A DNA stretch of 64,000 bases from a virus, in UHGV virus genome UHGV-1682877; one strand, given 5' to 3'. Each line of letters opens with the position of its first letter. The first letter of the stretch is position 1. Below are positions 6,424 to 48,310 of this stretch, piece after piece. Under the pieces are notes generated by a model that did not search any database, was not told the DNA's origin, and saw nothing but the letters and a program-made list of their open reading frames with translations. Position numbers and translations under genes: made by a program.

Positions 6424-6480
6424 TTTGAAACTTTTAGCTTGGCTTAGGTCGGGGCGGAGACGTGCGAATAAAAATAGCTT
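6424..6480 (+). promoter_or_regulatory. conserved GC-box element (copy 1 of 3)
   Basis: tttgaaacttttagcttgg...tcggggcggagacgtgcgaataaaaatag; near-identical copies at ~13916 and ~48250. Confidence 0.45.
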
Positions 6481-6514
6481 TAACAAATTTTTTAAAGGAT
6501 AAAGGAGAATAACA

Positions 6515-7291
6515 ATGTTATATAGTTTAAATACAAGACTAAAAAAATTAATGCCAGATGAAATCAAATGTCAAATAAATAGATTAGGAGACATTTTTGA
6601 TTTAATTAAAGAAAATCCAGACATTAGATGTAATATTCAATACACTAATATGGGCGAATTATCTGAAAAAAAACTGGATGAACAAATTGATTTCATTAAA
6701 GAAGTGGCAAAAGATTATACAATAGCTGTAATTAATTTCCAAGATTTGCGGAAATTAAAAGCAAAAGGCTATAATGTATATTTAGATTTGCCGGTTTCAG
6801 ATTGGGAAACTTTTAATAATTTAAAAAATATTGGCGTTTCAGATATTTACATTGACGGAGCTTTAGGATTCCAAATGGAGAAAATTGGAAAAGCAAAAGG
6901 AAAAATAAAGATTAGGGTTACTCCGCATATGTCGCCAAATGCGCAATGGTCATCTTCAGATAATGAAAATTCTTTTTATATTCGACCAGAAGATATAGAT
7001 AATTATTCTAAATATGTAGATATTTTAGACTTTAGAGATAACAGCAAAGATGCAGAAGAAACTTTATTCAATATTTATAAAAGGAAGATTTTTCCTTTTG
7101 ATTTAAATAATTTAATTAGACAACTGAATTTACCAACTAATAATATTTATATTGCAAATAGTTTTTGTTCAAACAGATTGAATTGCGGGCAAAGATGTCA
7201 GGAGCCTGATATTTCTTGTCATTTATGTAGAAATGCAATTTTAATTTCTAATAAAATGAATGAATATATTAGTTTAACGGAAAAAAATTGA
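6515..7291 (+). CDS. hypothetical protein with Cys-rich C-terminus
   Basis: ORF track. Confidence 0.45.
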   Translation: MLYSLNTRLKKLMPDEIKCQINRLGDIFDLIKENPDIRCNIQYTNMGELSEKKLDEQIDFIKEVAKDYTIAVINFQDLRKLKAKGYNVYLDLPVSDWETFNNLKNIGVSDIYIDGALGFQMEKIGKAKGKIKIRVTPHMSPNAQWSSSDNENSFYIRPEDIDNYSKYVDILDFRDNSKDAEETLFNIYKRKIFPFDLNNLIRQLNLPTNNIYIANSFCSNRLNCGQRCQEPDISCHLCRNAILISNKMNEYISLTEKN

Positions 7292-7342
7292 TTTTCTTTA
7301 AAAAATATAATATAATATTTATATAATAAAAGAAATAATAAG

Positions 7343-7377
7343 TTTTATAAAACTCACCAAAGGTGAGTTTTATAAAA
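7343..7377 (+). terminator. terminator-like hairpin (same core as 33550)
   Basis: aaactcacc aaa ggtgagttt hairpin. Confidence 0.45.
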
Positions 7378-7400
7378 CAAATAAGAAAGATGGGGATGAT

Positions 7401-18829: not shown

Positions 18830-20053
18830 TTGGCTTTTGATTTTAAACCTATTACAAAAATTTGTTTAAATATTACAGAAATGTGCCAGTGTGCTTGTCC
18901 TTTTTGTTTTGCAGAATATCACCCTCATAGAATATCTTACCAAGTTGCAAAGGATGCGGCAGACTGGATTATTAAAAATTCAGAATTAACAGGAGAAGTA
19001 GGATCTATCGGTTTTTTTGGCGGTGAACCGCTTCTTGAATGGGATACGATTATTGTTCCACTTACCAAGTATATTAAAGATGAGCGAGGATTAAAAGATT
19101 TTGAATTGGGTGTTACGACAAATTGTCTTTTGCTTGATGAAGAAAAGTTAAAATTTATGAAAAAATATGACTTTGGTTTACTATGCTCTATTGATGGAGC
19201 AAAAGAAACTCAAGATTATAATAGACCTTGCCGCAATGGACAAAGTAGCTTCGATATTATTGATGAAAAGATTCCTTTAATTCTAAAATATTTTCCAGAT
19301 ACTTTAATGCGTTCTACTATTATTCCCGCAACATGTGAACATTATTTTAAAAATTTAGAGTATGGATGGAATAAAGGATTCTATCATAGTTTTACAATTA
19401 TTAATCAATTTGAAGAATGGCCCGAAGATAAAAGAAAAATTCTTGAAGAGCAAGTTAGAAAATTTTCTAATTATTTAATTACATGTTTTAGAGAAGGATT
19501 GCCTTTTATGCGCCAACGAACTCTTGAACAAGCAATTAATAAAATAGTTGGAACAAATCTTCATTTTGCTCAAGGTAATGTTGAAAGAATTAAATTTGAT
19601 GATTTAGGAAGATGTTGTGGACTTGGTAGTGGATATGGTGCTATTAATTATGAAGGAGACATTTTTACTTGTCAAGAAGCAGTAAGCCGAGAAAAAGATA
19701 AAAATATTTTTTATATTGGAAATATTTATACTGGTATTGACAAAGAGCGTCAACAAAAATTATTTGATGATGTATATGCTAATGGTGGAAATGTTTATAA
19801 TTCTGTCGATAAAAATAAGTGTAAAGAATGTCCAATAGAAGCTAGCTGTAATATGAATAGTTGTTTAGTTAATAATTATTTAGAAAGACAATTATTTGAC
19901 ATTCAAGCAGATGCAATGTGTTGGTGGAATAATCTTATGGCGAAAGAAGCTCAATATATTTGTTATATACTTGGTACAGAAAATAATGAATATTTTAAAG
20001 ATTATTTTAAATGGGTAATTACCTCACAAGGAGGGACACTTAGCAATGATTGA
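18830..20053 (+). CDS. radical SAM enzyme with C-terminal SPASM-like Cys cluster
   Basis: CQCACPFC (CxxxCxxC), GGEPLL, C-terminal CKECPIEASCNMNSC; TTG start 18830 after RBS aaggagg. Confidence 0.75.
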   Translation: MAFDFKPITKICLNITEMCQCACPFCFAEYHPHRISYQVAKDAADWIIKNSELTGEVGSIGFFGGEPLLEWDTIIVPLTKYIKDERGLKDFELGVTTNCLLLDEEKLKFMKKYDFGLLCSIDGAKETQDYNRPCRNGQSSFDIIDEKIPLILKYFPDTLMRSTIIPATCEHYFKNLEYGWNKGFYHSFTIINQFEEWPEDKRKILEEQVRKFSNYLITCFREGLPFMRQRTLEQAINKIVGTNLHFAQGNVERIKFDDLGRCCGLGSGYGAINYEGDIFTCQEAVSREKDKNIFYIGNIYTGIDKERQQKLFDDVYANGGNVYNSVDKNKCKECPIEASCNMNSCLVNNYLERQLFDIQADAMCWWNNLMAKEAQYICYILGTENNEYFKDYFKWVITSQGGTLSND

Positions 20054-20795
20054 GTATATTCCTATTTCTAACAATTTAGCAGAAACTGTAGCAGAAATTG
20101 CTAATAAAAAATTTGAAGGCATGGTGCGAGAAGGAATAAATAATGGCGGAATTGTTGCTTTTGCAGATGGTTGTACTGGTTGCGAAAGTGGATGTTCTGG
20201 TTCTTGTACTGGAAGCTGTAGTAGCAGTTGTAAAGATAGTTGTAAGGATACTTGCAAAGATACCTGTAAAGGAAGTTGTAAAAACGGATGTAAAGAAGGG
20301 TGTAAAGGAAAATGTACTGGTAGCTGTCAATCTAGCTGCGAAAATGCCTGCGCACCTGGGTGTCAGTATAATTGTGAAGATGGTGGGCAAACAGTAGAAA
20401 CTTACAATTCTACAAGGCAGTATACTTTTGATGGTTGGTCTAGTACCGTAAGTCCAAACTCTACTATTAATATTTCTGCTGATGATTGGAATACCCTTGC
20501 AGGTAAAGTTAAAGGAGCAGCTCGTGCGGGTTGGGAGAAAAATGTAAGTGTGACAAGAGCATCTTCTGGAGGATGGATTACTGCTGCAATATATAATTCT
20601 ATGGTTAATGGATTAAATTCTTTGGGTAATTCTTTAGGAAGTGTTGGTTCTTCGACTTACATTGAAGCAAGTCATTTTTCTAAATTAACCAATGCATTAA
20701 ATAAAGCAACTATTCCAAAGAAAAAATGCTGCGAGTTAAAAGAATATTGTATGGAAAGTTGCAATGAAACAAGAGGCCCATTAACTGGTTCTTAA
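20046..20795 (+). CDS. Cys-repeat protein, candidate substrate of upstream radical SAM enzyme
   Basis: about 16 consecutive CxxxC units (CKDSCKDTCKDTCKGSC...), 8 nt overlap with upstream gene. Confidence 0.6.
   Translation: MIEYIPISNNLAETVAEIANKKFEGMVREGINNGGIVAFADGCTGCESGCSGSCTGSCSSSCKDSCKDTCKDTCKGSCKNGCKEGCKGKCTGSCQSSCENACAPGCQYNCEDGGQTVETYNSTRQYTFDGWSSTVSPNSTINISADDWNTLAGKVKGAARAGWEKNVSVTRASSGGWITAAIYNSMVNGLNSLGNSLGSVGSSTYIEASHFSKLTNALNKATIPKKKCCELKEYCMESCNETRGPLTGS
20170..20370 (+). repeat. 12 bp-periodic coding tandem repeat
   Basis: tgtaaagatagt-like units. Confidence 0.6.
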
Positions 20796-20811
20796 CTAGG
20801 ACACTGTTAAA

Positions 20812-20842
20812 TTGAAAATTTTAAAAAAATATTATATAATAT
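20812..20842 (+). promoter_or_regulatory. repeated promoter family copy (first of tandem pair)
   Basis: ttgaaa-17-tataat atatatagaaagttaaggaaag. Confidence 0.5.
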
Positions 20843-20897
20843 ATATAGAAAGTTAAGGAAAGAGTAATAAAAATTTCTTGAACAAAATAAATTAATT

Positions 20898-21263: not shown

Positions 21264-21349
21264 GTGGGCGTGATGAAATAGGAAAACATATCGCACTTAA
21301 AATGCGCTGCTAATCTAGCTTGTGGGTTCGAGTCCCATCGCCCACACCA
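21264..21349 (+). tRNA. tRNA-Leu (anticodon TAA)
   Basis: acceptor gtgggcg/cgcccac, loop cttaaaa, long variable arm, CCA. Confidence 0.65.
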
Positions 21350-21350
21350 T

Positions 21351-21390
21351 CTTTAAAACTGATACTCTTTACTATTAGTTTTAAAGATAA
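21351..21390 (+). other. perfect 12 bp inverted-repeat hairpin between tRNAs
   Basis: atctttaaaact ... agttttaaagat. Confidence 0.5.
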
Positions 21391-21413
21391 CAATGAACTT
21401 GAGTTTACTGATA

Positions 21414-21491
21414 TGCGTCTGTAACTCAACTGGATAGAGTAACTGCCTTCTAAGCAGTAAGCCAGGGGTTCGAGTCCCTTCAGGCGTACCA
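21414..21491 (+). tRNA. tRNA-Arg (anticodon TCT)
   Basis: loop cttctaa, T-arm aggggttcgagtccctt, CCA. Confidence 0.65.
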
Positions 21492-21676
21492 AGCAGAACT
21501 ATAATAGGCAACAAAAGGAAATAGCTGATGTGAAAGGCATCTTGTCTTGCTGACATGACAATAAACTTTGAACGGGCGTATAATGCGTATCGTGCCTGCG
21601 GGTGTAGAGTCAGAAAAGTAGGGGAATAATTGAGGAGCAGCTATAGGTGAGGCCCCACCTCCACCTTCCTTAATAT

Positions 21677-21768
21677 GGGGCAATGGCAGAGTTTGGCTTA
21701 TTGCACTTGTCTTGAAAACAAGCAAACTAGCAATAGTTTCACTGGTTCAAATCCAGTTTGCCCCGCCA
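21677..21768 (+). tRNA. tRNA-Ser (anticodon TGA)
   Basis: acceptor ggggcaa/ttgcccc, loop cttgaaa, long variable arm, CCA. Confidence 0.65.
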
Positions 21769-21772
21769 ATAA

Positions 21773-21846
21773 GCAGGTATAGTTTAATGATAGAACTCTG
21801 GACTTCCACTCCAGCGATGCGGGTTTGATTCCCGTTACTTGCTCCA
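21773..21846 (+). tRNA. tRNA-Gly (anticodon TCC)
   Basis: loop cttccac, T-arm gcgggtttgattcccgt, CCA. Confidence 0.65.
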
Positions 21847-21909
21847 TAAAGATACTCACAGCAATTTATTTTTTATAATGGGTATAAAAAAATAAAGTAT
21901 CTTGTATTT

Positions 21910-21985
21910 GCTAACGTGGCGCAACAGGTAGCGCAGCGGCCTTGTAAACCGCAGGTTAAGAGTTCAAGTCTCTTCGTTAGCTCCA
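21910..21985 (+). tRNA. tRNA-Thr (anticodon TGT)
   Basis: acceptor gctaacg/cgttagc, loop cttgtaa, CCA. Confidence 0.65.
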
Positions 21986-21987
21986 AT

Positions 21988-22063
21988 GGTTCGCTAGTTC
22001 ATTAGGTAGAACACTTGCCTTTTAAGCAAGATGTGCTGGGTTCAAATCCCAGGCGAGCCACCA
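21988..22063 (+). tRNA. tRNA-Lys (anticodon TTT)
   Basis: loop cttttaa, T-arm ctgggttcaaatcccag, CCA. Confidence 0.7.
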
Positions 22064-22437
22064 TTAGTCTTATCATACAGACGTAAAATAAATGAGTACC
22101 CCAGATAATGCTGAACTGGGTATCCGGGTATCGGGAGAATTAGTCTGGCAACTGTTGAAGCGACGATACTGCGTGACCAGGCATAAGGGCGACCTAAGTC
22201 GTTAGCTATGGGTAAACAGGTTGATAGCCGCATAGTAAAATGTTTCCTTGCGTCATTAAAATGCAAGGCGTTATAGGAGAGACGGCGGAGCATTACTCAT
22301 CTCCACTCCTTCTGCTACGAGAAGTAGAAAATCAAGGCTTCTGAGAAATGCTAATGAGAATGGTCAACCTCTGATTAAAAAAGGACTAAAGCTAGCTTAG
22401 GTTTTAGGTTATCCTCCTTACGAGGGAAAACCTTATT
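22064..22437 (+). ncRNA. structured non-coding region, candidate novel ncRNA
   Basis: ~370 nt with no RBS-supported ORF, locally GC-richer, multiple hairpins (ccttgc/gcaagg, cttct/agaag, nested ggtt-cctc/gagg-aacc). Confidence 0.3.
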
Positions 22438-22522
22438 TGCCAGAATGTTGGAATTGGTAGACAAAGAAGTCTCAAAAACTTTCGCTTTATGCGTGCGGGT
22501 TCGAATCCCGCTTCTGGTACCA
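22438..22522 (+). tRNA. tRNA-Leu (anticodon CAA)
   Basis: acceptor gccagaa/ttctggt, loop ctcaaaa, long variable arm, T-arm gcgggttcgaatcccgc, CCA. Confidence 0.65.
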
Positions 22523-22734: not shown

Positions 22735-24258
22735 ATGGAAAATAAGATGCTTAATATTTTGAAGGAAAAGAATACTCATTCTATCACTGAGAACGGCGGT
22801 TTGACTTATAATTCTACTATGAATGGAATTATGGATTTGTTTGCTCTTGGTGGTGCTTATCGAAATCGCTCAGATGATGATTGTATTTTTCTTTTTAAGA
22901 AGGCTTTTGAGGAAGATATTTCTTATGCTTTGAAGTGTCTCTTTTATTTGCGAGACGTACGCGGTGGACAGGGAGAACGCAGATTTTTTAAGGTCGTAAC
23001 TTCTTGGTTGGCAGTTAATCACACCGAGGAAATGCGTAGAAATCTGAAGTATGTTCCTGAGTATGGTCGCTGGGATGATTTGTATGCTTTTGTTGATACT
23101 CCGCTTGAGGCAGATGCTTTTAAGACTATGTATCATCAGCTTGCTCTTGATGTTCAGTGTAAAACTCCTTCTCTTTTGGCTAAGTGGTTGAAGTCTGAAA
23201 ATACTTCTTCTGCAGAATCTCGTATGCTTGGAGCTAAAACCAGAATGGCTTTTAATATGTCTCCTAAGCAGTATCGCAAGATTCTCTCTATTCTTCGTGA
23301 AAGAATTAGAGTTTTGGAAAGACTGATGAGTGAAAACCGTTGGGATGAAATTGAATTTGATAAGATTCCTTCTAAGGCAGGTCTAAAGTATCGCAATGCT
23401 TTTGCAAAGCACGATATTGAAAGAGAAAAGTCTAATAAGGTAACTTATGAAGAGTTTGTAAAGGATTCTAATACTAAGGTCAATGCTGATACTTTGAATC
23501 CCGCAGATGTAGTTCATGCTGTTGTTTCTAAATTTCCCTATTATAGAGGAAATTTTAATGGAACTGATGTGGAGAGAGCTGCACTCAATAAGTATTGGGA
23601 TAATCTAAAGGATTATTTTAATAATGCTGTTTTTGACGGTGTTGCTGTCGTTGATACTTCTGGTTCTATGTGTGGTTTTTATGGTAGTGAGAAAACTATT
23701 GCACCTATTGATGTAGCTATTTCTCTTGGTATGTATTGTGCTGAGAAGTGTAATCCCAATTCTCCCTGGTATGGACATTATATTACTTTTTCCCGAACTG
23801 CAAGATTGGTACCTGTTGAAGGTATTGATTTTGTTGATAAGGTGCGTAGAATTTATCAAAAGAATCTTTGTGAGAATACCAACATTAAAAGTATTTTTGA
23901 TTTGCTATTGAGCAATGCTATTAAATATAATATTCCTAATGAAGAAATGCCTAAAAACATTGTAATCATTAGTGATATGGAATTTGATTATTGCGCTGGT
24001 TACTATAATAGTGATGAATACAAGTCTGAAATGGAAAAGATTATGCAAGTTTGGAACTCTCATGGTTACACTACTCCACATTTGATTTTCTGGAATGTTG
24101 ACGCTCGAAATGATAATATTCCCATGAAGATGAAGGATGGTATTACTTTTATTTCTGGTTATTCTGCGGTAACTTATGAAATGTTGATGACTGGTAAAAC
24201 TGGTTTTGATTTGGTTTTGGAAAAGTTGAACAATAAGAGATATGAGGTAATCAAGTAA
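22735..24258 (+). CDS. vWA/MIDAS-domain protein with helical N-domain (DUF2828-like; possibly TROVE/Ro60-like)
   Basis: DTSGSM MIDAS motif near residue 305; N-terminal ENGGLTY...DLFALGGAYR...RDVRGGQGERR. Confidence 0.5.
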   Translation: MENKMLNILKEKNTHSITENGGLTYNSTMNGIMDLFALGGAYRNRSDDDCIFLFKKAFEEDISYALKCLFYLRDVRGGQGERRFFKVVTSWLAVNHTEEMRRNLKYVPEYGRWDDLYAFVDTPLEADAFKTMYHQLALDVQCKTPSLLAKWLKSENTSSAESRMLGAKTRMAFNMSPKQYRKILSILRERIRVLERLMSENRWDEIEFDKIPSKAGLKYRNAFAKHDIEREKSNKVTYEEFVKDSNTKVNADTLNPADVVHAVVSKFPYYRGNFNGTDVERAALNKYWDNLKDYFNNAVFDGVAVVDTSGSMCGFYGSEKTIAPIDVAISLGMYCAEKCNPNSPWYGHYITFSRTARLVPVEGIDFVDKVRRIYQKNLCENTNIKSIFDLLLSNAIKYNIPNEEMPKNIVIISDMEFDYCAGYYNSDEYKSEMEKIMQVWNSHGYTTPHLIFWNVDARNDNIPMKMKDGITFISGYSAVTYEMLMTGKTGFDLVLEKLNNKRYEVIK

Positions 24259-24268
24259 ATAGTATTTT

Positions 24269-24297
24269 AAGAGAGGTAAAATTACCTCTCTTTTTTT
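24269..24297 (+). terminator. rho-independent terminator
   Basis: agagaggtaa/ttacctctct hairpin plus TTTTTTT. Confidence 0.65.
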
Positions 24298-24312
24298 ATA
24301 AGGAGGATTAAA

Positions 24313-25374
24313 ATGATATTATTAAATGATGATAATAGACACAGAGATTTTACAGGTGTAACTCGTTTTCACAATGCAGGTTATTTTGGAGAAAGAGTAA
24401 ATGCCGCAAGTGGAGAAACCTGGGATGTTAATAGATATAATCCAGATAATTTAGTAAGAAATTGCTTAAAGGATAAACAATTTTCAGATGAACATCCAAT
24501 AAATACTGCGGCAACATTTTTTCAAGTAGCTCCAAAAGCTCATCTATTTATGCTTTATTCCATTGATGGCAGTTATGGTAGTGGAGATAATTATAACTCT
24601 AAATTTTTTAATGAATCAGTAGAAATTATTGAAAAATATAATATTACTAATATGTTTACCTCTTTAAATTGTAGTAGACATACTAAATTTTTTGAAGATT
24701 TAAAAAATTGGTATATTAAACATCCTAGTTTTAAACCCTTTTGGTGCGCAGGAAATGATTCTTCTAAAAAATATAATCCAATTATGGAAATTGAAGAAGT
24801 AATTGGTGTAGCCGCTTATACTTTAATGGTAAATGGTACAGTAAATCCTGCTTATTATTCTAGTATTAGTAGTTATGTAGACTTTTCTGCACCTAGTATG
24901 ATTTATTTAAATCCGCAAGCTACAAAACCAGACGCAGCAACTTATTCCAATTCTGGTACTTCTTTTTCTACACCTTGGTTATGTGGAATGAGCTGTTTAG
25001 TAGATGATTTCTTTATTGATAAAAAAGGATTACCTCTAACAAGAGAAGGAATGATTCAATTCTTTAAAGATAATTGTAAAGATATAGGCGATAAGGGTAT
25101 TGATCCAAAAACAGGATTTGGCGCAGTAATTTTACCTGAACCAAATTCTATTGATATTGATAAATATTATAATATTGGGAGGACAAATATGAGTACATTA
25201 GATAAATTTAAAGATAAAAATGATATTTCTAATTGGGCTAAAGCAAGTATTGAATGGGCTGTTAATACAGGTATTCTTCAAGGTGACGATAAAGGCTATC
25301 TTTTACCCAAAGCTTACCTAACTAGAGAGCAAATGGCAGTTATGTTAGAGCGTTTTAAAAATATTATAAAATAA
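24313..25374 (+). CDS. subtilisin-like serine protease with C-terminal SLH-like wall-binding domain
   Basis: SNSGTSFSTPW catalytic Ser motif; C-terminal WAVNTGILQGDDKGYLLP...LTREQMAVML. Confidence 0.6.
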   Translation: MILLNDDNRHRDFTGVTRFHNAGYFGERVNAASGETWDVNRYNPDNLVRNCLKDKQFSDEHPINTAATFFQVAPKAHLFMLYSIDGSYGSGDNYNSKFFNESVEIIEKYNITNMFTSLNCSRHTKFFEDLKNWYIKHPSFKPFWCAGNDSSKKYNPIMEIEEVIGVAAYTLMVNGTVNPAYYSSISSYVDFSAPSMIYLNPQATKPDAATYSNSGTSFSTPWLCGMSCLVDDFFIDKKGLPLTREGMIQFFKDNCKDIGDKGIDPKTGFGAVILPEPNSIDIDKYYNIGRTNMSTLDKFKDKNDISNWAKASIEWAVNTGILQGDDKGYLLPKAYLTREQMAVMLERFKNIIK

Positions 25375-25380
25375 TTTTAA

Positions 25381-25410
25381 GGGAGTCAAAATGACTCCCT
25401 TTTTATTTTT
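25381..25410 (+). terminator. rho-independent terminator
   Basis: gggagtca/tgactccc hairpin plus T-run. Confidence 0.65.
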
Positions 25411-25479
25411 TTAAAAAAATATTATATAATATATATAGAAAGTTAAGGAATAAATAAATAAGAAAGAAGTTGAAATTTT

Positions 25480-25749
25480 ATGATTTATAGAAAAAGCAAA
25501 TACAGTAAAGATCAGACTGCAATTTGGCAAGGTGAAACTGCGGTTATTCTTGCTCAATCAGCAGAAGCTATGACAATAGATGAAATTAAAAACAATAGTA
25601 TTCAATTAACAGGTGTTTCTACTCAAAAAATGGCTAGGATTCTTGGGCATTTGATTGAAATGGGTATGGTAACAAAAGCAAAAAGCAAAAGTGGAAAAAT
25701 GGTCTATAAATCTTTGGCAGTAATGGAAATGCAAGGTTATGAAATTTAA
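25480..25749 (+). CDS. hypothetical protein
   Basis: ORF track. Confidence 0.4.
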   Translation: MIYRKSKYSKDQTAIWQGETAVILAQSAEAMTIDEIKNNSIQLTGVSTQKMARILGHLIEMGMVTKAKSKSGKMVYKSLAVMEMQGYEI

Positions 25750-25768
25750 ATAAAGGAGTTTGATATTT

Positions 25769-27037
25769 ATGGCATACTATGGTTTAGTAACTAAAATTGA
25801 AAATGTAAGAAAAGACCCTAATTCTGATAGACTCTATTTGGCTGATTGTTTTAGAGAAGGAGTTATTGTAGGCCCTAATATGAAGGAAAGCGAGTTGGTT
25901 CTTTATCTTCCTACTGATGGAGCTATTGAGCGTTGGTTTGGTGATGAGTTTAAACTTTTCCGCAAGAATTTAGATGGTACCGCGCAAGGTGGTTATTTGG
26001 AAAATAATGCTCATATTAGAGCAATTAAGCTAAGAGGTAATGAATCTTCTGGTATTGTTATTTCTTATTCTACTATTGTTGAGCATTTTGGTGAGCAAAA
26101 TTGGAAAGATGGCGATCAGGTCACTGAAATTAATAATAAGCTATTTTGTTATAAATATATTCCTAAACCTTCGGCTATTCCTCGCACTACTCCTAAAACT
26201 TCTTATAAAGGTCGTAAAGCAGCTGGAATTAAGTATCCTGATTTTGCCATGCATATTGATACTGCCCAATTAGCTTACAATCTTGGAATTTTTAGACCTG
26301 GAGATAAAATTAATCTAACCCTTAAAATGCATGGAACTAGCCAGCGTAGTGCATATACTTGGGCAGAATATCCTATGTCTTGGTTTAGAAAGCTATTTCA
26401 CATGAAACCTAAGAGAAAGTTGCAGTATGTTTTAGGTACTCGTAGAACTGTTGTTACTACTGATGGGGTAGGTTATTATGGTAATGACAAATTTAGATTT
26501 AGTCACCATGAAGCTTTAAAACCTTATCTCGATGAAGGTATGGAAGTTTTTTATGAAGTAGTTGGTTGGTATGGAGCAAAAGAAAATGAAACTATTATGC
26601 CAATTGTAGATAATAGTAAAATTAATGACAAGAAATTTATGAAAAAGTTTGGTAAGTATACTACTTTTTCTTATGGTTGTACTCCTGGTCATTCTGCAAT
26701 GTGGATTTATAGAATTACTTCTCATAATGGTGAATATGAATATTCTCCAGAGGAAATTACTACTTGGTGTAATGAATATGGTTTTAATCGTGTTCCTATT
26801 ATTGAGGATTTTGAATTTACTACTGTTGATGACTTGCTCGCTAAAATTGACAAATATTTTGAAGATATTGTTGACCCAGTTGGTTTAACTCATGTTAAAG
26901 AAGGTGTAGTAGTTAGAATTGCTAATAGACGTACTTTTACTGCATTAAAACAAAAAACCTGGGAGTTTAAAGTCCTTGAAGGTCTAGTTAAAGATACTGA
27001 AACCCAGCCCGATATGGAAGAAGCACAGGAGGTTTAA
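25769..27037 (+). CDS. Rnl2-family RNA ligase with N-terminal tRNA-binding OB domain
   Basis: N-terminal LVTKIENVRKDPNSDRLYLADCF (tRNA-binding fold); KMHGTS motif I like T4 Rnl2 KIHGTN; EGVVVR motif IV; KQK motif V. Confidence 0.6.
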   Translation: MAYYGLVTKIENVRKDPNSDRLYLADCFREGVIVGPNMKESELVLYLPTDGAIERWFGDEFKLFRKNLDGTAQGGYLENNAHIRAIKLRGNESSGIVISYSTIVEHFGEQNWKDGDQVTEINNKLFCYKYIPKPSAIPRTTPKTSYKGRKAAGIKYPDFAMHIDTAQLAYNLGIFRPGDKINLTLKMHGTSQRSAYTWAEYPMSWFRKLFHMKPKRKLQYVLGTRRTVVTTDGVGYYGNDKFRFSHHEALKPYLDEGMEVFYEVVGWYGAKENETIMPIVDNSKINDKKFMKKFGKYTTFSYGCTPGHSAMWIYRITSHNGEYEYSPEEITTWCNEYGFNRVPIIEDFEFTTVDDLLAKIDKYFEDIVDPVGLTHVKEGVVVRIANRRTFTALKQKTWEFKVLEGLVKDTETQPDMEEAQEV

Positions 27038-27885: not shown

Positions 27886-27890
27886 AAGAA

Positions 27891-28699: not shown

Positions 28700-28701
28700 T
28701 T

Positions 28702-29106
28702 ATGATACTATTAATACTAGGATTAACATTACCTTTTACTGGAGCAATAATTTTAGGTTGTTTTATATATGATTATGATGAATATAAACTAGATTGTAAA
28801 ATTGTAAGGAAACATAAATATGTAGTTTTAAAATTAAAAGAATTTATTTCTTTCTATAATTTAAGTCCAGAAAATTATGAACTACAAAAATATTCGGTTG
28901 TTTTTTTAAAGCCTTTCTCTACACGAAAATATTTAACAGACAATAATATACGTATTATTTTTACAAATTATGTAGAAATGTTAAAATATAAAATTTGGAA
29001 AAAGACAGAAATTAAAAAAATAAATACAGAAAAAGAAAGAAAAGAACTTAAAGAATATTTTGAAATTGTAAAAAAACAAATTGAGGAGTTTGATAAAAAT
29101 GTCTAA
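28702..29106 (+). CDS. hypothetical membrane protein
   Basis: N-terminal hydrophobic segment. Confidence 0.4.
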   Translation: MILLILGLTLPFTGAIILGCFIYDYDEYKLDCKIVRKHKYVVLKLKEFISFYNLSPENYELQKYSVVFLKPFSTRKYLTDNNIRIIFTNYVEMLKYKIWKKTEIKKINTEKERKELKEYFEIVKKQIEEFDKNV

Positions 29107-29374
29107 AGACCCTAGAAAATATGAAATGCATGATTTTTATTGTATGAATTGCGGAAAGAAGTCAATGTCAATTCCTCGATTAAGAGGACGTTTTAGAGAA
29201 GTTGGGCATAAGAAAGTTATGTATTGCCCTCATTGTAAAGAAACTGTTAATATGGTAGAATGTAGAAATGATGAAGAAGCGTATAATTTTAAACTAGATT
29301 TTGAAGAAGGACTTTTTAAAGAAGAAGCACAAAATAGTATTTCTTATGTAAAGGAGTTTGGTATTTATGATTAA
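29099..29374 (+). CDS. zinc-ribbon protein
   Basis: CMNCG ... CPHCK. Confidence 0.45.
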   Translation: MSKDPRKYEMHDFYCMNCGKKSMSIPRLRGRFREVGHKKVMYCPHCKETVNMVECRNDEEAYNFKLDFEEGLFKEEAQNSISYVKEFGIYD

Positions 29375-29870
29375 TTTGCATATTCTTTGCGGTATTCCTG
29401 CTTCCGGTAAATCTACCTGGGCAAAACAACAGAATGGTAAAATTATCTCAAGAGATGAAATCCGCAAGAATTATGTAGGCGAAAATCCTGGAAAAAATTA
29501 TTTTAGTAAAGAAAAACAGGTATATAAAGAAATGATTGCAAATATTAAAATCGCAATTAAAGAAAATGTAGAAAATATTTATATAGATGCGACTCATATT
29601 GATATTGTTTCAAGAACTAAACTTTTAAACAATTTTTTTAATCTGAAAGATAAGAATAATATTAATCTTACTTTTGATTATTTTCCTATTCTTTTAGATG
29701 TTGCTTTAAAAAGAAATTCTGAAAGAGAAGGTTTTGCTAAAATTCCAGAAGAAGCAATAAAAAATTTTTATTTTAAATCTTCTATTCCTTCCAAAGATGA
29801 GATGAATAAATATCTTGATTGGGGTTTTCATAATGTGAATACTATTTTGCATTATACTGAGGAGGTGTAA
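29367..29870 (+). CDS. pnk: polynucleotide kinase (T4 Pnk kinase-domain-like)
   Basis: GIPASGKSTWA P-loop; KRNSEREGFAKIPEEAIKNFY parallels T4 Pnk KRNSKRGTKAVP..MY. Confidence 0.7.
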   Translation: MINLHILCGIPASGKSTWAKQQNGKIISRDEIRKNYVGENPGKNYFSKEKQVYKEMIANIKIAIKENVENIYIDATHIDIVSRTKLLNNFFNLKDKNNINLTFDYFPILLDVALKRNSEREGFAKIPEEAIKNFYFKSSIPSKDEMNKYLDWGFHNVNTILHYTEEV

Positions 29871-29872
29871 TA

Positions 29873-30415
29873 ATGGTTTGGTTTACCAGTGATCTTCATC
29901 TAGGCCATAATAAGCCCTTTCTTTATGAACCAAGAGGGTTTAAGAATATTCAAGAACATGATAACGCAATTATTGAAAATTGGAATAAAATTATTCGTCC
30001 TAATGATAAAGTTTATGTGCTTGGCGATTTGATGCTAAATGATAATGAAGCAGGAATTGAAAAAATTAAACAATTAAAAGGACAAATTTATGTAGTTAGA
30101 GGAAACCATGATAGTGAAGTTCGTGTAAATTTATATAATAATTGTAACAATATTATTAAAGTAACTGAAGGTCAATTTTTAAGATATGGTAAATATCATT
30201 TTTATTTAAGTCATTATCCTACACTTTGTAGTAATTTTGATAATGAGAAACCTCTTAAAGCAAGAATGATTAGTTTGTGCGGACATTCTCATAGTCAGGA
30301 TGCTTTTGCGAATTGGGATAAAGGTCTTATTTATCATGTAGAATTAGATGCTCATAATAATTTCCCTGTTTCTATTGATTCGATTATTAAGGATATTAAA
30401 AATAGAATTAAGTAA
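29873..30415 (+). CDS. calcineurin-like metallophosphoesterase, candidate 3'-phosphatase partner of Pnk
   Basis: TSDLHLGH, VLGDLMLND, RGNHD, LCGHSH. Confidence 0.7.
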   Translation: MVWFTSDLHLGHNKPFLYEPRGFKNIQEHDNAIIENWNKIIRPNDKVYVLGDLMLNDNEAGIEKIKQLKGQIYVVRGNHDSEVRVNLYNNCNNIIKVTEGQFLRYGKYHFYLSHYPTLCSNFDNEKPLKARMISLCGHSHSQDAFANWDKGLIYHVELDAHNNFPVSIDSIIKDIKNRIK

Positions 30416-40254: not shown

Positions 40255-40914
40255 TTGGGCAAAGTTATTATCCAATCCGCAACTACTAAGAATCCTCTTC
40301 ATCTTATCGGCGTTGAAGCGGGAGTATGTTGGAACGCAAAAATCACAAATAAATATAATAATATTAAAAGAGCTAAAGAATGTATTGAATCTGGGCATGG
40401 AAGAGTTATGGAATTTCCACAAGTTTATATGATCCTTGAAGGATATAGCGCAAAAACTTTGAGAGAATTTTATACTCATATTTCAGGTGGCCCCACACGA
40501 CTACAAGCGTCAACTCGCTATATCAACTATGATTCTTTTTCTTTTGTTTCTCCTTCTTTTACTTCTAAAGAAATGAAACAAAAATATGAAGAAAGTATGC
40601 AATCAATTGCTCAGAATTATAAAGTATTAGTTGATATGGGGATGCCGATTGAAGATGCTAGTCTTTTGCTTCCTCTCGGTATGGAAACAAAAGTAGTAGT
40701 AAGAACTAATTTGCGGAATTTAGTTGATATGTCCCATCAAAGAATGTGTAAACGTGCCTATTGGGAATATCAAAATGTTATGCAGGATATAAAAAAAGCA
40801 CTTGCTATTTACTCAGAAGAATGGAAATATTTGGTAGATCACTTATTTGTTCCCAAATGTCAATATTTCGGCAAATGTACCGAGAAGCATTCTTGCGGTA
40901 AATTGAAAAATTAA
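40255..40914 (+). CDS. thyX: flavin-dependent thymidylate synthase (ThyX)-like
   Basis: THISGGPTRLQASTRY resembles ThyX RHRx7S motif; TTG start. Confidence 0.5.
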   Translation: MGKVIIQSATTKNPLHLIGVEAGVCWNAKITNKYNNIKRAKECIESGHGRVMEFPQVYMILEGYSAKTLREFYTHISGGPTRLQASTRYINYDSFSFVSPSFTSKEMKQKYEESMQSIAQNYKVLVDMGMPIEDASLLLPLGMETKVVVRTNLRNLVDMSHQRMCKRAYWEYQNVMQDIKKALAIYSEEWKYLVDHLFVPKCQYFGKCTEKHSCGKLKN

Positions 40915-41008
40915 AAAAAATATTATACAATATTTATAGAAAATAAAAAGAAAAGCCTCTTTTCAGAAGTGGCAATAAAAAAAATAATTAAATCAAAAGG
41001 AGAAAATA

Positions 41009-45176: not shown

Positions 45177-45383
45177 ATGACTATTTATTATGCTAACTCT
45201 CATATGCCCGCAGTGAAGAATGAAAAGAAAATTGATTATAAGATGCCTATATCTATGTTTGAGGGTTTATTGAAGACTCGCAATAAGGAAGAGAAGCGAA
45301 TGAATCCTTATGAATATGTTACCAAAATTGTTAATAATGAATTTGGTCTGAGAGGTAAAGTTGTTAATGTAATTACATATTAA
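45177..45383 (+). CDS. hypothetical protein
   Basis: ORF track. Confidence 0.4.
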   Translation: MTIYYANSHMPAVKNEKKIDYKMPISMFEGLLKTRNKEEKRMNPYEYVTKIVNNEFGLRGKVVNVITY

Positions 45384-45385
45384 TT

Positions 45386-46483
45386 ATGGCCGGTTATTAC
45401 AATAAAGATTCTCTAAAAGAACAGTTAGATTTAGAAAATATTTATGATTTAGTCGCAGAATTAGGAGGAGAGCCAGAATATGTAGAAACTGGACTTATTT
45501 CGCAGACTATTTGTCATAATTATCCAGGTGAAGGTTCCAGAAAATTATACTATTATCAAAATTCTCATTTGTTTAAATGTTTCACAGATTGTGATTCTAC
45601 TTTTGACGTTTTTGAATTAGTAATTAAAGCTATGAAAATTCAAAAAGGTTATGAATGGGAATTATATGATGCAATGGTTTATATTGCTAGTTATTTTGGT
45701 TTGGGAGAAGCGGAACGCCCAAACCAAAATAACAATTCTGAACAATGGGTAGTTTTTAAGAGACATGATTTTTCATTGCCTTCTTTAAAACAAAATCCAA
45801 TTTTAAAAGAATATAATCCAAAAATTTTAAAGAATTTTTCTTATCCAAGAATTTTTGATTGGGAGCAAGAAGGAATTTCACATCAAATTAATTTAAAAAA
45901 TTTAATTGGTTATTTTCCAGCAGGAGAACAAATAACAATTCCACATTTTGATATAAACAATAGATTAATTGGAATTAGAGGTAGAGCTTTAATTCAAGAA
46001 AATGCAGAGAGATTTGGTAAATATAGACCTCTGCAAATTAATAATATTATATATAGTCATCCTTTAAGTATGAATTTATATAATTTAAACAATAGTAAAG
46101 AAAATATTAAAGCTAGTAAGACCGCAATTATTTTTGAATCTGAAAAAAGCACTCTTCAATTACAAACTTTTTATGGCTTTGAAAATAATATTTCAGTAGC
46201 ATGTTGTGGTAGTAATATTTCAAGCTACCAAATATATTTATTAGAAAAATTAGGGGTAAAGGAAATTATCATTGCTTTTGATAGACAGTTTAAAGAAATA
46301 GGTGATAGTGAATTTCAAAGATTAAAGAATAAATTAATTAATTTAAATAGAAAATATGGAAATTTAATTCAGATAACAGCAATTTTTGATAAAAATATGA
46401 TTACTCCTTATAAATCTAGTCCAAGTGATATGGGGAGGGACATATTTGAAAAATTATTATCTGAAAGAATTATTCCAAAATAA
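45386..46483 (+). CDS. dnaG: DnaG-like DNA primase
   Basis: zinc-binding region CHNYPGEGSRKLYYYQNSHLFKCFTDCD. Confidence 0.6.
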   Translation: MAGYYNKDSLKEQLDLENIYDLVAELGGEPEYVETGLISQTICHNYPGEGSRKLYYYQNSHLFKCFTDCDSTFDVFELVIKAMKIQKGYEWELYDAMVYIASYFGLGEAERPNQNNNSEQWVVFKRHDFSLPSLKQNPILKEYNPKILKNFSYPRIFDWEQEGISHQINLKNLIGYFPAGEQITIPHFDINNRLIGIRGRALIQENAERFGKYRPLQINNIIYSHPLSMNLYNLNNSKENIKASKTAIIFESEKSTLQLQTFYGFENNISVACCGSNISSYQIYLLEKLGVKEIIIAFDRQFKEIGDSEFQRLKNKLINLNRKYGNLIQITAIFDKNMITPYKSSPSDMGRDIFEKLLSERIIPK

Positions 46484-46520
46484 AGTAGTGGTGATCTCCG
46501 CATGAAAGGAGATTAATACT

Positions 46521-48257
46521 ATGAACTATAAATTAATTAATCCTATTGATTCAAATAAATCAATAGTGGAACAAATTTTAAATAACAGGGGGATTCAAGA
46601 TATACAAACTTATTTGAATCCAAATGATTCTGTTATTTATAATCCAAATTTAATAAATAATATGCAGCAAGGAGTAGAAATGCTTTTTCGTCACTTAGGA
46701 AAAGATTTAATTTATTTAATTGTAGATGATGATGATGATGGATTTACTTCTGCTGCTATTTTTTTAAATTATTTATATAAAATTGTTCCATCAATAGTAG
46801 AAGCAAATATTATTTATGATTTTCACCCGCATAAAGCTCATGGAATTTGGTTAGACCAAATTCCGCAAGAAACTAAATTGGTTATAGCTTTAGATTCTAG
46901 CAGTAATGAGTATGATATACATGAGCAATTATTCAATGAAGGAATTGATGTTTTAGTAATCGACCACCATAAAGCAGATAAAGTTAGTCCTTTTGCTTGT
47001 GTAATAAATAATCAACTTTGCGATTATCCAACTAAATCATTATCCGGCGCAGGTATGGTATATAAATTTTGTAAGTATATTGATAATTTACTTAACTTAG
47101 ATTACGCAGATAATTTTCTTGATTTAGTGTCTCTTGGTTTGACAGGAGACGTTATGAGTTTAAGAGATTTAGAAACATCTTATTTAACTAGAAAAGGATT
47201 AGAAAATATTCAAAATCCTTTTATGCGAGAGATGGTAGAAAAAAATAGTTATCAATTAGGTACTGATATTACATCCATAGGAGTTGCTTTTTATATTGTA
47301 CCTTATATTAATGCAGTTGCTAGATTGGGGACAAAAGAAGAAAAGAAAATATTATTTGAAGCAATGCTTAATTGGAAAGCTTTAAATCAAATTCCTTCTA
47401 CTAAACGAGGATGCAAAGGACAAATGGAAGCAATTGTTACTCAAGCAGTTAGAATGAGTAATAATATTAAAAATCATCAAAATAAAATTAGAGATGAAAA
47501 CATTGAGATTATTAGTAATCAAATTGAAGAAAAAGATTTATTAAAAAATAAAATTTTAATAATTCAATCAACTCCAGAAGAGCCAATTAATAGATCTATT
47601 TCTGGATTAATTGCAAATCGACTGGTTTCAGAATACCAGCGTCCTGTTATTATTTTAAATGAATATAATATAGACAATAAAATAACTTGGGAAGGTTCAG
47701 CAAGAGGGTATGAAAAATCTCAATTAAAAGATTTACAAACCTTTGAACAAAAATCTAATTTAATTAATTGGGCGCAAGGACATGCTAATGCTCATGGTTT
47801 ATCTATTTCAGATGAAAATTTATCGAAATTTATAGATTATTGCAATCAAGAATTAAAAAATGTGGAATTTACTCCTGATTATAGAGTAGATTTTATATGG
47901 CAATATTCTGATATTTTGGCTAAAAATATTTTAGACATTGGTAATTTAAAACATCTTTGGGGAAAAGATGTAGAAGAAGCTTTAATAGTTATAAAAGGAA
48001 TTCGAGTAACTGCTAACAATCTTCATCTTATGGCAAAAGATAGAAATCCTACATTAAAAATTGATTTAAAAGATAATATAAAAGCAATTAAGTTTAAATC
48101 AGGAGAAGAAGAATATAATAACTTATATACTGAACAAGGTTGCGTAGTTATTGATATTCTTTGTAAGTGTGAGATAAATGAATATTGCGGAAACATTAAT
48201 CCGCAATTAATTATTCAAGATTATGAAATTGTATCTCGCCAGGATTATTTCTTTTGA
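46521..48257 (+). CDS. recJ: DHH-family phosphoesterase (RecJ-like exonuclease)
   Basis: DDDDDG and VIDHH motifs. Confidence 0.65.
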   Translation: MNYKLINPIDSNKSIVEQILNNRGIQDIQTYLNPNDSVIYNPNLINNMQQGVEMLFRHLGKDLIYLIVDDDDDGFTSAAIFLNYLYKIVPSIVEANIIYDFHPHKAHGIWLDQIPQETKLVIALDSSSNEYDIHEQLFNEGIDVLVIDHHKADKVSPFACVINNQLCDYPTKSLSGAGMVYKFCKYIDNLLNLDYADNFLDLVSLGLTGDVMSLRDLETSYLTRKGLENIQNPFMREMVEKNSYQLGTDITSIGVAFYIVPYINAVARLGTKEEKKILFEAMLNWKALNQIPSTKRGCKGQMEAIVTQAVRMSNNIKNHQNKIRDENIEIISNQIEEKDLLKNKILIIQSTPEEPINRSISGLIANRLVSEYQRPVIILNEYNIDNKITWEGSARGYEKSQLKDLQTFEQKSNLINWAQGHANAHGLSISDENLSKFIDYCNQELKNVEFTPDYRVDFIWQYSDILAKNILDIGNLKHLWGKDVEEALIVIKGIRVTANNLHLMAKDRNPTLKIDLKDNIKAIKFKSGEEEYNNLYTEQGCVVIDILCKCEINEYCGNINPQLIIQDYEIVSRQDYFF

Positions 48258-48310
48258 TTTTTGAAAGTTTTAGCTGGAAGCTCATCGGCGCGGAGACGAT
48301 GAATTAAAAT
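48250..48310 (+). promoter_or_regulatory. conserved GC-box element (copy 3 of 3)
   Basis: tttgaaagttttagctggaagctcatcggcgcggagacgatgaattaaaatggagtttagtaattttt. Confidence 0.45.

What the first reader, a model, noticed from the sequence alone, without database searches (positions are those of the whole stretch)
6424..48310. Three copies of a GC-rich conserved upstream element distinct from the main promoter family
Copies at about 6424-6480, 13916-13965 and 48250-48310 share TTGAAA-TTTTAGCT...CGG(C/G)GCGG(A/G)GACG...GAATTAAAAT(A/G)GAGTTTAGTAATTTTT. Each sits 30-100 bp upstream of a gene start (6515, 14059 at the head of the tail-fibre cluster, 48352). The GC-rich box is conspicuous in a ~30% GC genome. 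It may be a second promoter class for a different transcription stage, a regulator binding site, or a small structured RNA.
Basis: seen in the sequence. Interest (0 to 1): 0.6.

Follow-up and report, generated by a model that had tools for sequence, protein, structure and literature searches.

The report
Second promoter-like motif in gut phage
Three copies of a GC-rich box followed by an AT-rich, -10-like segment sit ahead of three gene units of an uncultured human-gut phage that lack the phage's usual promoter; this is most likely a small second class of factor-dependent promoter and not a structured RNA, which is a real but fairly ordinary kind of finding.

Summary
The window has exactly three copies of CGG[C/G]GCGG[A/G][G/C]ACG, then 2-3 nt, then GAAT[T/A]AAAAT[A/G]G..TTTA..TTTTT. 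All are on the + strand, at 6424-6495, 13916-13970 and 48260-48330 (0.13 core matches expected by chance). The element is conserved, in the same place upstream of the helicase/DNA-polymerase genes, in related phage lineages whose polymerase is 65-73% identical. No Rfam family matches, folds are no better than shuffled sequence, RNAalifold finds no consensus structure, and there is no covariation, so a structured RNA is not supported. The context points to a promoter. The element is orientation-specific and has no dyad symmetry. It contains a -10-like NAAAAT but no -35. No sigma70-type promoter lies between it and the downstream gene. The six-gene unit behind copy 2 is bracketed by two terminators, which leaves the element as its only promoter candidate. 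It is not the late promoter class: there is no copy in about 24 kb of the structural/lysis arm, and probably only three copies per 137-kb genome. No recognition factor was identified. About 49 kb of the genome could not be read ORF by ORF. Verdict: a clade-specific cis-regulatory DNA motif, most likely a factor-dependent promoter. Interest is moderate to low.

The parts
6424..6495 (+). Copy 1. TTGAAA is at 6425-6430, the GC core CGGGGCGGAGACG at 6450-6462, GAAT at 6466-6469, the -10-like AAAAAT at 6470-6475, G at 6477, TTTA at 6479-6482 (predicted start A6482) and the T-run at 6488-6493.
   Evidence: nhmmer E=1.6e-11
13916..13970 (+). Copy 2, which lacks the upstream TTGAAA..TTTTAGCT half. The GC core CGGCGCGGGCACG is at 13920-13932, GAAT at 13936-13939, the -10-like TAAAAT at 13940-13945, TTTA at 13950-13953 (predicted start A13953) and the T-run at 13958-13964.
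   Evidence: nhmmer E=7e-14; ten strain variants
48260..48330 (+). Copy 3. TTGAAA is at 48261-48266, the GC core CGGCGCGGAGACG at 48286-48298, GAAT at 48301-48304, the -10-like TAAAAT at 48305-48310, TTTA at 48315-48318 (predicted start A48318) and the T-run at 48323-48327.
   Evidence: nhmmer E=1e-9. This is the copy whose position is conserved in related lineages.
6353..6378 (+). Intrinsic terminator ahead of copy 1: an 11-bp stem followed by a T-run.
13874..13904 (+). Terminator hairpin ACCTCAAGT/ACTTGAGGT plus T7, after tRNA-Gln (13748-13823) and immediately ahead of copy 2.
   Evidence: read from the sequence; tRNA. It is conserved in strains. The scan tool did not list it.
6515..7291 (+). 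Unit 1: a 258-aa protein of unknown function. The next gene has its own sigma70-type promoter at 7288-7316.
14059..18247 (+). Unit 2: six genes of 89, 410, 121, 168, 403 and 156 aa. The 410-aa and 168-aa proteins have weak Mtd_N / tail-spike-like N-termini.
   Evidence: no sigma70-type promoter lies upstream
18254..18286 (+). Terminator closing unit 2: GGGTAGAAG..CTTCTACCC plus T7. A main-family promoter follows at 18289-18334.
48352..49744 (+). Unit 3: a 78-aa ORFan overlapping a Dda-like SF1 helicase. The DNA polymerase III alpha gene that follows has its own sigma70-type promoter at 49732-49760.

Best explanation
Each copy is a DNA-level, orientation-specific transcription start signal of a second, minor promoter class. 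The AT-rich half supplies a -10-like hexamer N-A-A-A-A-T. A G usually sits two bases downstream of it, and an invariant TTTA lies 7-8 nt downstream, whose A is the predicted start (A6482, A13953, A48318). Where the phage's ordinary promoters carry TTGAAA at -35, this element carries a GC-rich box at about -20 to -32. Host sigma-A RNA polymerase alone should therefore use it poorly, and it would need a specificity factor that reads the GC box, such as an activator, a sigma-appropriating pair or an alternative sigma. The factor is probably phage-encoded and lineage-specific. The element drives a small regulon of three units: a 258-aa protein, a six-gene tail-fibre-like operon, and a small ORF plus helicase. 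SHOWN: the motif, its copy number, strand and conservation; the absence of a -35 and of any other promoter; the flanking terminators; the absence of RNA structure. INFERRED: that transcription starts here, the exact start site, and the dependence on a factor.
For: (1) There are three copies only, all on the coding strand, far beyond chance.
(2) Unit 2 lies between a terminator at 13874-13904 and one at 18254-18286. No sigma70-type site on the + strand lies between 13665 and its ATG among the sites listed; four weaker sites were not shown. Unit 1 also follows a terminator at 6353-6378 with no sigma70-type promoter before its ATG. Only 9/12 matches occur near copy 3. In contrast, about 18-24 other gene starts carry a near-consensus TTGAAA-N17-TATAAT.
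(3) The hexamer keeps A at position 2 and T at position 6 in all three window copies, in their strain variants, and in the L135-type, L145-type and L270-type relatives (TAAAAT, AAAAAT, CAAAAT, CAAATT). TTTA follows at a fixed 7-8 nt.
(4) The GC box has no dyad symmetry, as read from the sequence.
(5) The element sits at the same place, ahead of the small ORF + helicase + PolIII-alpha, in lineages with 65-73% polymerase identity and a higher genomic GC of 38-42%. A GC-rich box persists in a 30% GC genome.
(6) In the L135-type lineage two conserved blocks flank a hypervariable 10-nt spacer, as in bipartite promoter recognition. The distance to the downstream sigma70 promoter changes by 13 nt in L254/L270, so the element is not phased with that promoter.
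(7) There is no RNA-structure signal.
Against: There are no transcript data. No recognition factor was found: Pfam and PHROGs hits for window proteins include no sigma, RNA polymerase, MotA/AsiA-like or HTH regulator, and most early proteins are ORFans. One relative (L262) has CGAAAT, which loses the key A. One strain (L277) has A in place of the G two bases downstream. In the L135-type lineage a consensus sigma70 promoter lies 28-41 nt downstream, so a promoter role there would be redundant. Copy 3 has no terminator upstream, so its unit could be read through from the RecJ-like gene. A GC box at -20 to -32 is an unusual position for an activator or a -35 equivalent. The distance from box to hexamer is not identical across lineages. 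The three units have no evident common function or timing.
Confidence: 0.45

Rival explanations
1. The element is a binding site (operator or activator site) for a phage regulator and has no promoter activity of its own. It would be analogous to the SPBRE repeats of Bacillus phage SPbeta, which are bound by the master repressor MrpR at about ten promoter regions.
For: There are few copies per genome, placed at heads of transcription units. The L135-type lineage has the element just upstream of a consensus sigma70 promoter. The replication module is SPbeta-like (YorF, YorH, DnaB/YorI, RecJ/YorK, PolIII-alpha/YorL at 38% identity), and SPbeta uses a repeated regulatory element (PMC10516654). The AT half contains an AAAAT-N10-11-ATTTT inverted pair, read from the sequence.
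Against: In the window no sigma70-type promoter lies next to any of the three copies for such a site to regulate. The distance to the sigma70 promoter in relatives is not conserved, with a 13-nt difference. The GC box has no dyad symmetry. The SPBRE, derived here as AAATACAAAAAATATGTAT, is unrelated in sequence. No tyrosine-recombinase-fold or HTH protein was seen in the window.
Confidence: 0.2
2. The element is a promoter for a phage-encoded RNA polymerase, either YonO-like as in SPbeta or of another kind: a GC-rich specificity region, an AT-rich melting region, and a purine start directly after AAAAT.
For: The layout resembles single-polypeptide-RNAP promoters. The base after AAAAT is an interchangeable purine, A/G polymorphic between strains in copies 1 and 2. 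The replication genes are SPbeta-like, SPbeta has the RNAP YonO, and YonO's promoter is still undefined (PMC5467207). About 49 kb of the genome was not inspected ORF by ORF.
Against: No RNAP gene appears in about 88 kb examined (window, 3.7 kb upstream, 20 kb downstream). tblastn with YonO found nothing in any fetched locus, and the 867-aa late protein is unrelated to YonO. SPbeta YonO transcribes the late structural operon, whereas this element is absent from the part of the structural arm that was examined. L145 has T at the supposed +1.
Confidence: 0.1
3. The element acts at the RNA level, as a leader, processing site or protein-binding site in the mRNA, or as a small RNA, recognised mainly by sequence and not by structure.
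For: Copy 3 is probably transcribed from upstream, because there is no terminator after the RecJ-like gene. The phage carries an RNA-handling module (Ro/TROVE-like protein, RNA ligase, kinase-like and phosphoesterase genes). In the L135-type lineage a 5-bp stem tolerates G-U changes.
Against: There is no Rfam match, even at E up to 10. MFE z-scores run from -0.6 to +1.0. RNAalifold predicts 0 pairs. Zero pairs show changes on both sides, and pairing is no better than in column shuffles. Copy 2 and the L135-type copies lie between a terminator and the next promoter, where little transcript is expected. The short ATG-initiated frames (MEFSNF*, MALTNF*) lack a Shine-Dalgarno at usable spacing and have ATA or ATT in half of the copies.
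Confidence: 0.08
4. The element is an origin-type element, a promoter plus an AT-rich unwinding region that primes replication, like T4 oriF/oriG, which are MotA-dependent promoters with a downstream DNA-unwinding element.
For: The ancestral, conserved copy lies inside the replication module, directly ahead of the helicase and polymerase. It has a GC box followed by a long AT-rich tract. Relatives have a single copy.
Against: GC skew is uniformly positive from 1 to 60 kb with no change at 48.3 kb; it flips only where gene orientation flips. The window phage has two further copies ahead of unrelated genes. There are no iterons or repeated boxes.
Confidence: 0.05
5. The element is a functionless repeated remnant spread by recombination.
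For: Copy 2 is unusually polymorphic: 6 A/G sites in 34 nt against 12 in 243 nt of flank, p=0.014. Copy 2 is truncated at its 5' side.
Against: A GC-rich box is retained in a 30% GC genome and across lineages. Polymorphism falls on the degenerate positions, while CCGGCGCGG, CACG and AATTAAAAT are fixed in 10 strains. Strand and position relative to genes are strictly conserved.
Confidence: 0.05

Closest known systems
T4 middle promoters (MotA/AsiA sigma appropriation)
   Same: Both have a sigma70-type -10 element, no -35, and a phage-specific box upstream of the -10 (the MotA box is centred near -30). Both are used for a subset of genes inside the early/DNA-metabolism region, and in T4 some double as replication origins.
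   Different: The box sequence is unrelated: the MotA box is (a/t)(a/t)(a/t)TGCTTtA, whereas here it is CGGSGCGGRSACG or TTGCGGCGACA. No MotA or AsiA homologue was detected. The host is probably a low-GC Firmicute. Only about three copies exist per genome.
phi29 late promoter A3 with activator p4
   Same: Both are Firmicute-phage promoters that lack a -35 and depend on a phage DNA-binding protein. p4 sites are A/T-tract inverted pairs (CTTTTT-N15-AAAATG, from my own knowledge), and the AT half here contains AAAAT-N10-11-ATTTT.
   Different: p4 binds far upstream, near -82. There is no GC box in phi29, and no p4 homologue was seen here.
SPBRE / MrpR operator system of Bacillus phage SPbeta
   Same: Both are phage-specific repeated intergenic elements found at a handful of transcription-unit heads, in phages sharing the YorF-YorL type replication module (PMC10516654).
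   Different: The SPBRE is AT-rich (AAATACAAAAAATATGTAT) and abuts sigma-A promoters as a repressor site. The present element is GC-rich plus AT-rich and, in the window, stands alone without a sigma70 promoter. No MrpR-like protein was seen.
T7/SP6-type single-subunit RNAP promoters and the undefined YonO promoter
   Same: Both have a contiguous conserved sequence of about 25-45 bp with an upstream specificity part, an AT-rich part and a purine immediately after it.
   Different: No phage RNAP was found in the 88 kb examined. The sequence is unrelated, and the element is absent from the late arm.

Membership tests
Housekeeping sigma70/sigma-A consensus promoter (the window's main family) | A -35 hexamer resembling TTGACA, 16-18 bp upstream of the -10 | tested here: not met
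   The consensus scan finds no such site on the + strand at copies 1 and 2, and only a 9/12 match at copy 3 that is not conserved in the other copies. The -35 position is occupied by GC-rich sequence.
Housekeeping sigma70/sigma-A consensus promoter (the window's main family) | A -10 hexamer resembling TATAAT, with A at position 2 and T at position 6 | tested here: met
   NAAAAT is present in all window copies and nearly all variants. The exception is CGAAAT in L262.
T4-type MotA-dependent middle promoter | A MotA box (a/t)(a/t)(a/t)TGCTTtA centred near -30 | tested here: not met
   The box sequences read are unrelated to the MotA box (consensus recalled from the literature).
T4-type MotA-dependent middle promoter | Phage-encoded MotA and AsiA homologues | tested here: inconclusive
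   No PHROG or Pfam hit of that kind was found for 50 window proteins scanned. However, the early proteins are ORFans and about 49 kb of the genome was not inspected.
SPbeta SPBRE / MrpR operator | The 15-bp SPBRE sequence | tested here: not met
   The SPBRE derived from five SPbeta promoter regions is AAAAAATATGTATA and flanks, with no similarity to the element.
SPbeta SPBRE / MrpR operator | A tyrosine-recombinase-fold repressor (MrpR/YopR) | tested here: inconclusive
   No Phage_integrase-type Pfam hit appears on called genes of the window or flanks. The rest of the genome was not seen.
Rfam structured RNA (riboswitch, leader, sRNA) | A match to a curated covariance model | tested here: not met
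   Only tRNAs reach gathering score. At E up to 10 there are only chance-level hits of 8-19 bits against gathering scores of 46-100.
Rfam structured RNA (riboswitch, leader, sRNA) | A conserved secondary structure with covariation | tested here: not met
   RNAalifold predicts 0 pairs on 13 variants. The candidate stem has 0 pairs with changes on both sides and does not beat shuffles. Fold z-scores are not significant.
Promoter of a phage-encoded RNA polymerase (T7-like or YonO-like) | The phage genome encodes such a polymerase | tested here: inconclusive
   None was found in about 88 kb. About 49 kb was not inspected.
Intrinsic terminator | A GC-rich hairpin immediately followed by a U-tract | tested here: not met
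   The scan does not call the elements as terminators. The T-run lies about 25 nt after the GC box, and the hairpin is weak and not conserved.

The most novel reading that the evidence does not exclude
The element is the recognition sequence of an as yet unidentified transcription system, either a new sigma-appropriation or activator pair or a non-canonical phage RNA polymerase related to SPbeta YonO. This system would operate in a widespread clade of about 130-kb human-gut phages with SPbeta-like replication genes. The conserved helicase-proximal copy might also serve as a transcription-primed replication origin.
Probability: 0.12. Interest if true: 0.55.

Novelty: new member of a known kind. 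Interest (0 to 1): 0.3.

Why it matters
If correct, the motif defines a second transcription class in an abundant but uncultured family of large human-gut phages. Proteins flanking the element were found in dozens of metagenome assemblies. The motif would point to an unknown phage-encoded specificity factor among the ORFan early genes. It also gives concrete coordinates for start-site predictions that can be tested against metatranscriptomes. Beyond that it is an ordinary kind of feature: phages commonly have several promoter classes.

Tried and rejected
- **Structured RNA or riboswitch:** rejected on Rfam, single-sequence folds (27), RNAalifold (56) and pair counting on a candidate 5-6 bp stem (78).
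- **Leader peptide** (MEFSNF*, MALTNF*): rejected because half the copies have ATA, ATT or TTG and no Shine-Dalgarno at usable spacing.
- **By-product of paralogous genes:** rejected.
- **ECF-type promoter** (TGAAAC-N16-GTC in copy 1): rejected because the GTC varies between strains (GTC, ACC, GCC) and copy 2 has no -35.
- **Other sigma classes:** sigma54, sigmaH, sigmaB, sigmaD, SPO1 gp28/gp34, TcdR-like and pBS32 SigN (TTTACGT..GATATAAT) consensus sequences were compared by eye. None fits all copies.
- **CRISPR-repeat, tracrRNA-like or solitary-repeat idea** (GTTTTAGCT..AATTAAAAT): rejected because the 5' half is missing in copy 2 and the hairpin is broken in strain variants.
- **Invertase or DGR site:** rejected because the copies are in direct orientation, lie far from the invertase and DGR (which are beyond the window end), and sit upstream of genes.
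- **SPbeta comparison:** the PyonO region between the published primer-extension primers shows no convincing similarity. The SPBRE is unrelated.
- **Searches that led nowhere:** megablast against cultured phages; GTDB genomes; the pattern TTTGAAASTTTTAGCT, which was too unspecific; a homologue search with the 729-aa tail-protein fragment, which gave no hit; the 78-aa protein, which has only >90% identical relatives; PDB sequence searches for the 258-, 410- and 403-aa proteins.
- **Genome coverage:** I could not read the last ~49 kb of the genome ORF by ORF.

Full report
**What the window is.** The 64-kb window is 30.5% GC. It comes from a human-gut metagenome scaffold, ENA ERZ28663491 scaffold_130 (67.7 kb). 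It belongs to an uncultured phage of about 137 kb; near-identical contigs of 130-137 kb exist (IMGVR_UViG_3300045988_145614 and ERZ28662716 scaffold_29). Genes run on the + strand from before the window start to about 60.3 kb. They comprise ORFan early genes, two tRNA clusters with 17 tRNAs, an RNA-handling module, topoisomerase, ligase, and an SPbeta-like replication module (YorF, YorH, DnaB, RecJ-like, Dda-like helicase, PolIII-alpha 38% identical to SPbeta YorL) followed by NrdD. From 60,357 onward, and for at least 20 kb beyond the window end, genes run on the - strand. These encode holin, tail proteins, an invertase and a DGR, so this is the late arm. About 18-24 gene starts carry a near-consensus TTGAAA-N17-TATAAT promoter with a conserved downstream region.

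**The observation.** The 13-nt GC core CGGSGCGGRSACG occurs exactly three times in the window, all on the + strand, with no additional match at up to 2 mismatches on either strand; 0.13 are expected from shuffles. After the core come 2-3 nt, then GAAT[T/A]AAAAT, a purine, G, then TTTA at a fixed 7-8 nt from the hexamer, and a T-run. Copies 1 and 3 also share an upstream TTTGAAA[C/G]TTTTAGCT. Copy 2 does not; it begins a few bases after a terminator hairpin that follows tRNA-Gln. The downstream proteins (258, 89 and 78 aa) are unrelated, so the repeat is an independent intergenic motif.

**Copy number and distribution.**
- A profile built from 13 variants finds no further copy in the window, in 3.7 kb upstream of it, or in 20 kb beyond its end.
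- In 2.85 Mb of fetched loci the profile hits only this clade, plus one chance match.
- An exact-pattern scan of IMG/VR for the core plus hexamer found only copies 1 and 3 in the 137.7-kb relative. Its copy 2 differs by one base and was found with another pattern.
- Three copies per genome is therefore likely, and the element is not the promoter class of the structural/lysis arm.

**Conservation in relatives.** Searching with the polymerase gave 17 viral and 23 metagenomic loci at 50-100% identity. They share the gene order p365 - RecJ-like - (extra ORF) - small ORF - helicase - polymerase.
- In the lineages at 65-73% identity, a homologous element sits ahead of the small ORF + helicase. These are the L135-type at 38-39% GC, L145/L147 at 42% GC, and L254/L270.
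- The L135-type lineage has one copy per genome. The order there is always terminator - element - consensus sigma70 promoter - small ORF. Among its 12 distinct variants, TTGCGGCGACA and GG(G/A)(T/C)TTAGG are essentially invariant and the 10 nt between them are hypervariable.
- In L254/L270 the element is 13 nt closer to the sigma70 promoter. It is therefore not positioned relative to that promoter.
- More distant lineages (50-64% identity, and L142) have only sigma70-type promoters at this place.

**Strain variation.** Ten strains of the window phage show six A/G polymorphic positions within 34 nt of copy 2, against 12 in 243 nt of flank (p=0.014). CCGGCGCGG, CACG and AATTAAAAT are fixed in all ten. 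Copy 3 is less variable.

**It is not a structured RNA.**
- There is no Rfam hit at gathering score apart from tRNAs, and only chance-level hits at E up to 10.
- Folding energies of the three copies do not differ from shuffles, with z from -0.6 to +1.0.
- RNAalifold on 13 variants predicts no pair.
- A 5-6 bp stem that can be drawn in most L135-type variants shows no change on both sides and does not beat column shuffles. It is absent or different in the window copies.
- The small AGCT hairpin of copies 1 and 3 is broken in strains L291 and L292.

**Why I favour a promoter.**
- Unit 2 (14059-18247, six genes) lies between two good intrinsic terminators, at 13874-13904 and 18254-18286. It has no sigma70-type promoter, so the element is the only conserved candidate for starting its transcription.
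- Unit 1 likewise follows a terminator (6353-6378) without a sigma70-type promoter.
- The element is strictly co-oriented with the downstream genes, and its GC box has no dyad symmetry.
- The AT half reads as a -10 hexamer, with A at position 2 and T at position 6 kept in TAAAAT, AAAAAT, CAAAAT and CAAATT. A G usually sits two bases downstream, the position contacted by sigma region 1.2 according to established knowledge of sigma70 promoters. A pyrimidine-purine step (T-A of the invariant TTTA) lies 7-8 nt downstream.
- This model predicts starts at A6482, A13953 and A48318, giving leaders of 33, 106 and 34 nt.
- The place of the -35 is occupied by the GC box, at about -20 to -32. In an AT-rich genome this should make the site poor for sigma-A holoenzyme alone and dependent on a factor that reads the box.
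- This is how T4 MotA-dependent middle promoters and the phi29 A3 promoter work. The element fails the sequence tests for membership in those families, and no homologous factor was found.

**Weak points.**
- There are no transcript data, and no factor was identified.
- L262 has lost the key A of the hexamer, and L277 has lost the downstream G.
- A promoter role is redundant with the sigma70 promoter in the L135-type lineage.
- Copy 3 has no upstream terminator.
- The box position is unusual.

**Rivals.**
- A regulator-binding site without promoter activity, like the SPBRE/MrpR system of SPbeta (PMC10516654), is the main rival. However, the window has no adjacent promoter for such a site to regulate, and the SPBRE sequence derived here is unrelated.
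- A promoter for a phage RNA polymerase is attractive, because SPbeta has YonO and its promoter is still undefined (PMC5467207). No RNAP was found in about 88 kb, and the element is missing from the late arm that YonO would be expected to serve.
- An origin-type element is not supported by GC skew.
- A functionless remnant is unlikely, given that a GC-rich box is retained in a 30% GC genome and across lineages.

**Verdict.** The feature is real, statistically secure and conserved. It is most likely a minor, factor-dependent promoter class (confidence about 0.45), or otherwise a regulator site (about 0.2). It is a new member of a known kind of feature, in an uncultured but widespread gut phage. 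Interest is about 0.3.

Noticed in passing
window 296-57908 (e.g. 306-351, 1114-1159, 10175-10220, 20809-20854, 25399-25444, 40900-40945): The main promoter family has about 18-24 copies of TTGAAA-N17-TATAAT. Many have TG before the -10 and a conserved downstream ATATATAGAAAGTTAAGGA that runs into the ribosome-binding site, so conservation extends well beyond the promoter hexamers.
   Followed up: partly
window 13040-13112: ARAGORN calls a tRNA with a four-base anticodon (tgaa) and an undetermined amino acid; Rfam also scores it as tRNA (53 bits). It may be a frameshift-suppressor-like tRNA or one with an odd anticodon loop. It sits in a 10-tRNA cluster (10813-13823); a second cluster of 7 lies at 21264-22522.
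   Followed up: no
window 22735-30415: There is an RNA-handling module. It contains a 507-aa protein with DUF2828/DUF7788 (PHROG 'RNA-binding protein', Ro/TROVE-like) next to the tRNA cluster, an RNA ligase (25760-27037), YqeY, an AAA_33 kinase-like protein, and three metallophosphoesterases. A partner non-coding RNA (Y-RNA-like) was not looked for.
   Followed up: no
window 18794-20795: A radical SAM enzyme (419 aa) is followed by a 249-aa protein matching Pfam tSAM_targ_Cxxx_rpt, a Cys-repeat radical-SAM target. This is a possible peptide-modification pair carried by a phage.
   Followed up: no
L248 1436-6603 and 9326-9943 (3.5-12 kb beyond the window end): A diversity-generating retroelement (RVT_1 reverse transcriptase, accessory genes, and a 587-aa Big_3 target) and a 205-aa resolvase/invertase lie next to the tail-fibre and holin genes. 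Within the window, the 410-aa and 168-aa proteins of unit 2 have weak Mtd_N-like N-termini.
   Followed up: partly
L292 1724-3237; L142, L139, L148, L150 polymerase region: In some relatives the helicase carries a LAGLIDADG insertion (747 aa in place of 389 aa). In others the PolIII-alpha match is split by 0.2-1.2 kb. This suggests inteins or introns in the replication genes of this clade.
   Followed up: no
window 12359-13006: A GIY-YIG endonuclease gene sits inside the tRNA cluster. In other strains the same slot holds a PDDEXK_5 protein or nothing (L277, L282 versus L278, L281), so it is a variable mobile-nuclease slot.
   Followed up: no
window 27630-27690: There is another small GC island, TTTGAAATCTTGCGGCTCGGAGGC, preceded by TTGAAA, at the start of a 72-aa ORF. 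It resembles the TTGCGGCGACA box of the L135-type relatives, but it lacks the AT half and is not hit by the element profile.
   Followed up: partly
window 13917-13949 across ten strains (L276-L285): All six polymorphic sites in copy 2 are A/G on the + strand and occur in mixed combinations between strains. The density is about four times that of the flanks (p=0.014).
   Followed up: yes
L151 19153-20835 (SPbeta record NC_001884 59152-60834): There is a 1.7-kb stretch without annotated genes between yonN and yonK of SPbeta. [quoted passage not shown] No similarity to the element was found.
   Followed up: partly
window 24313-25374: A 353-aa protein has weak peptidase S8 and SLH (S-layer homology) matches. 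This hints at a host with an S-layer-type envelope. No relative of the phage was found in 185,579 species genomes.
   Followed up: no
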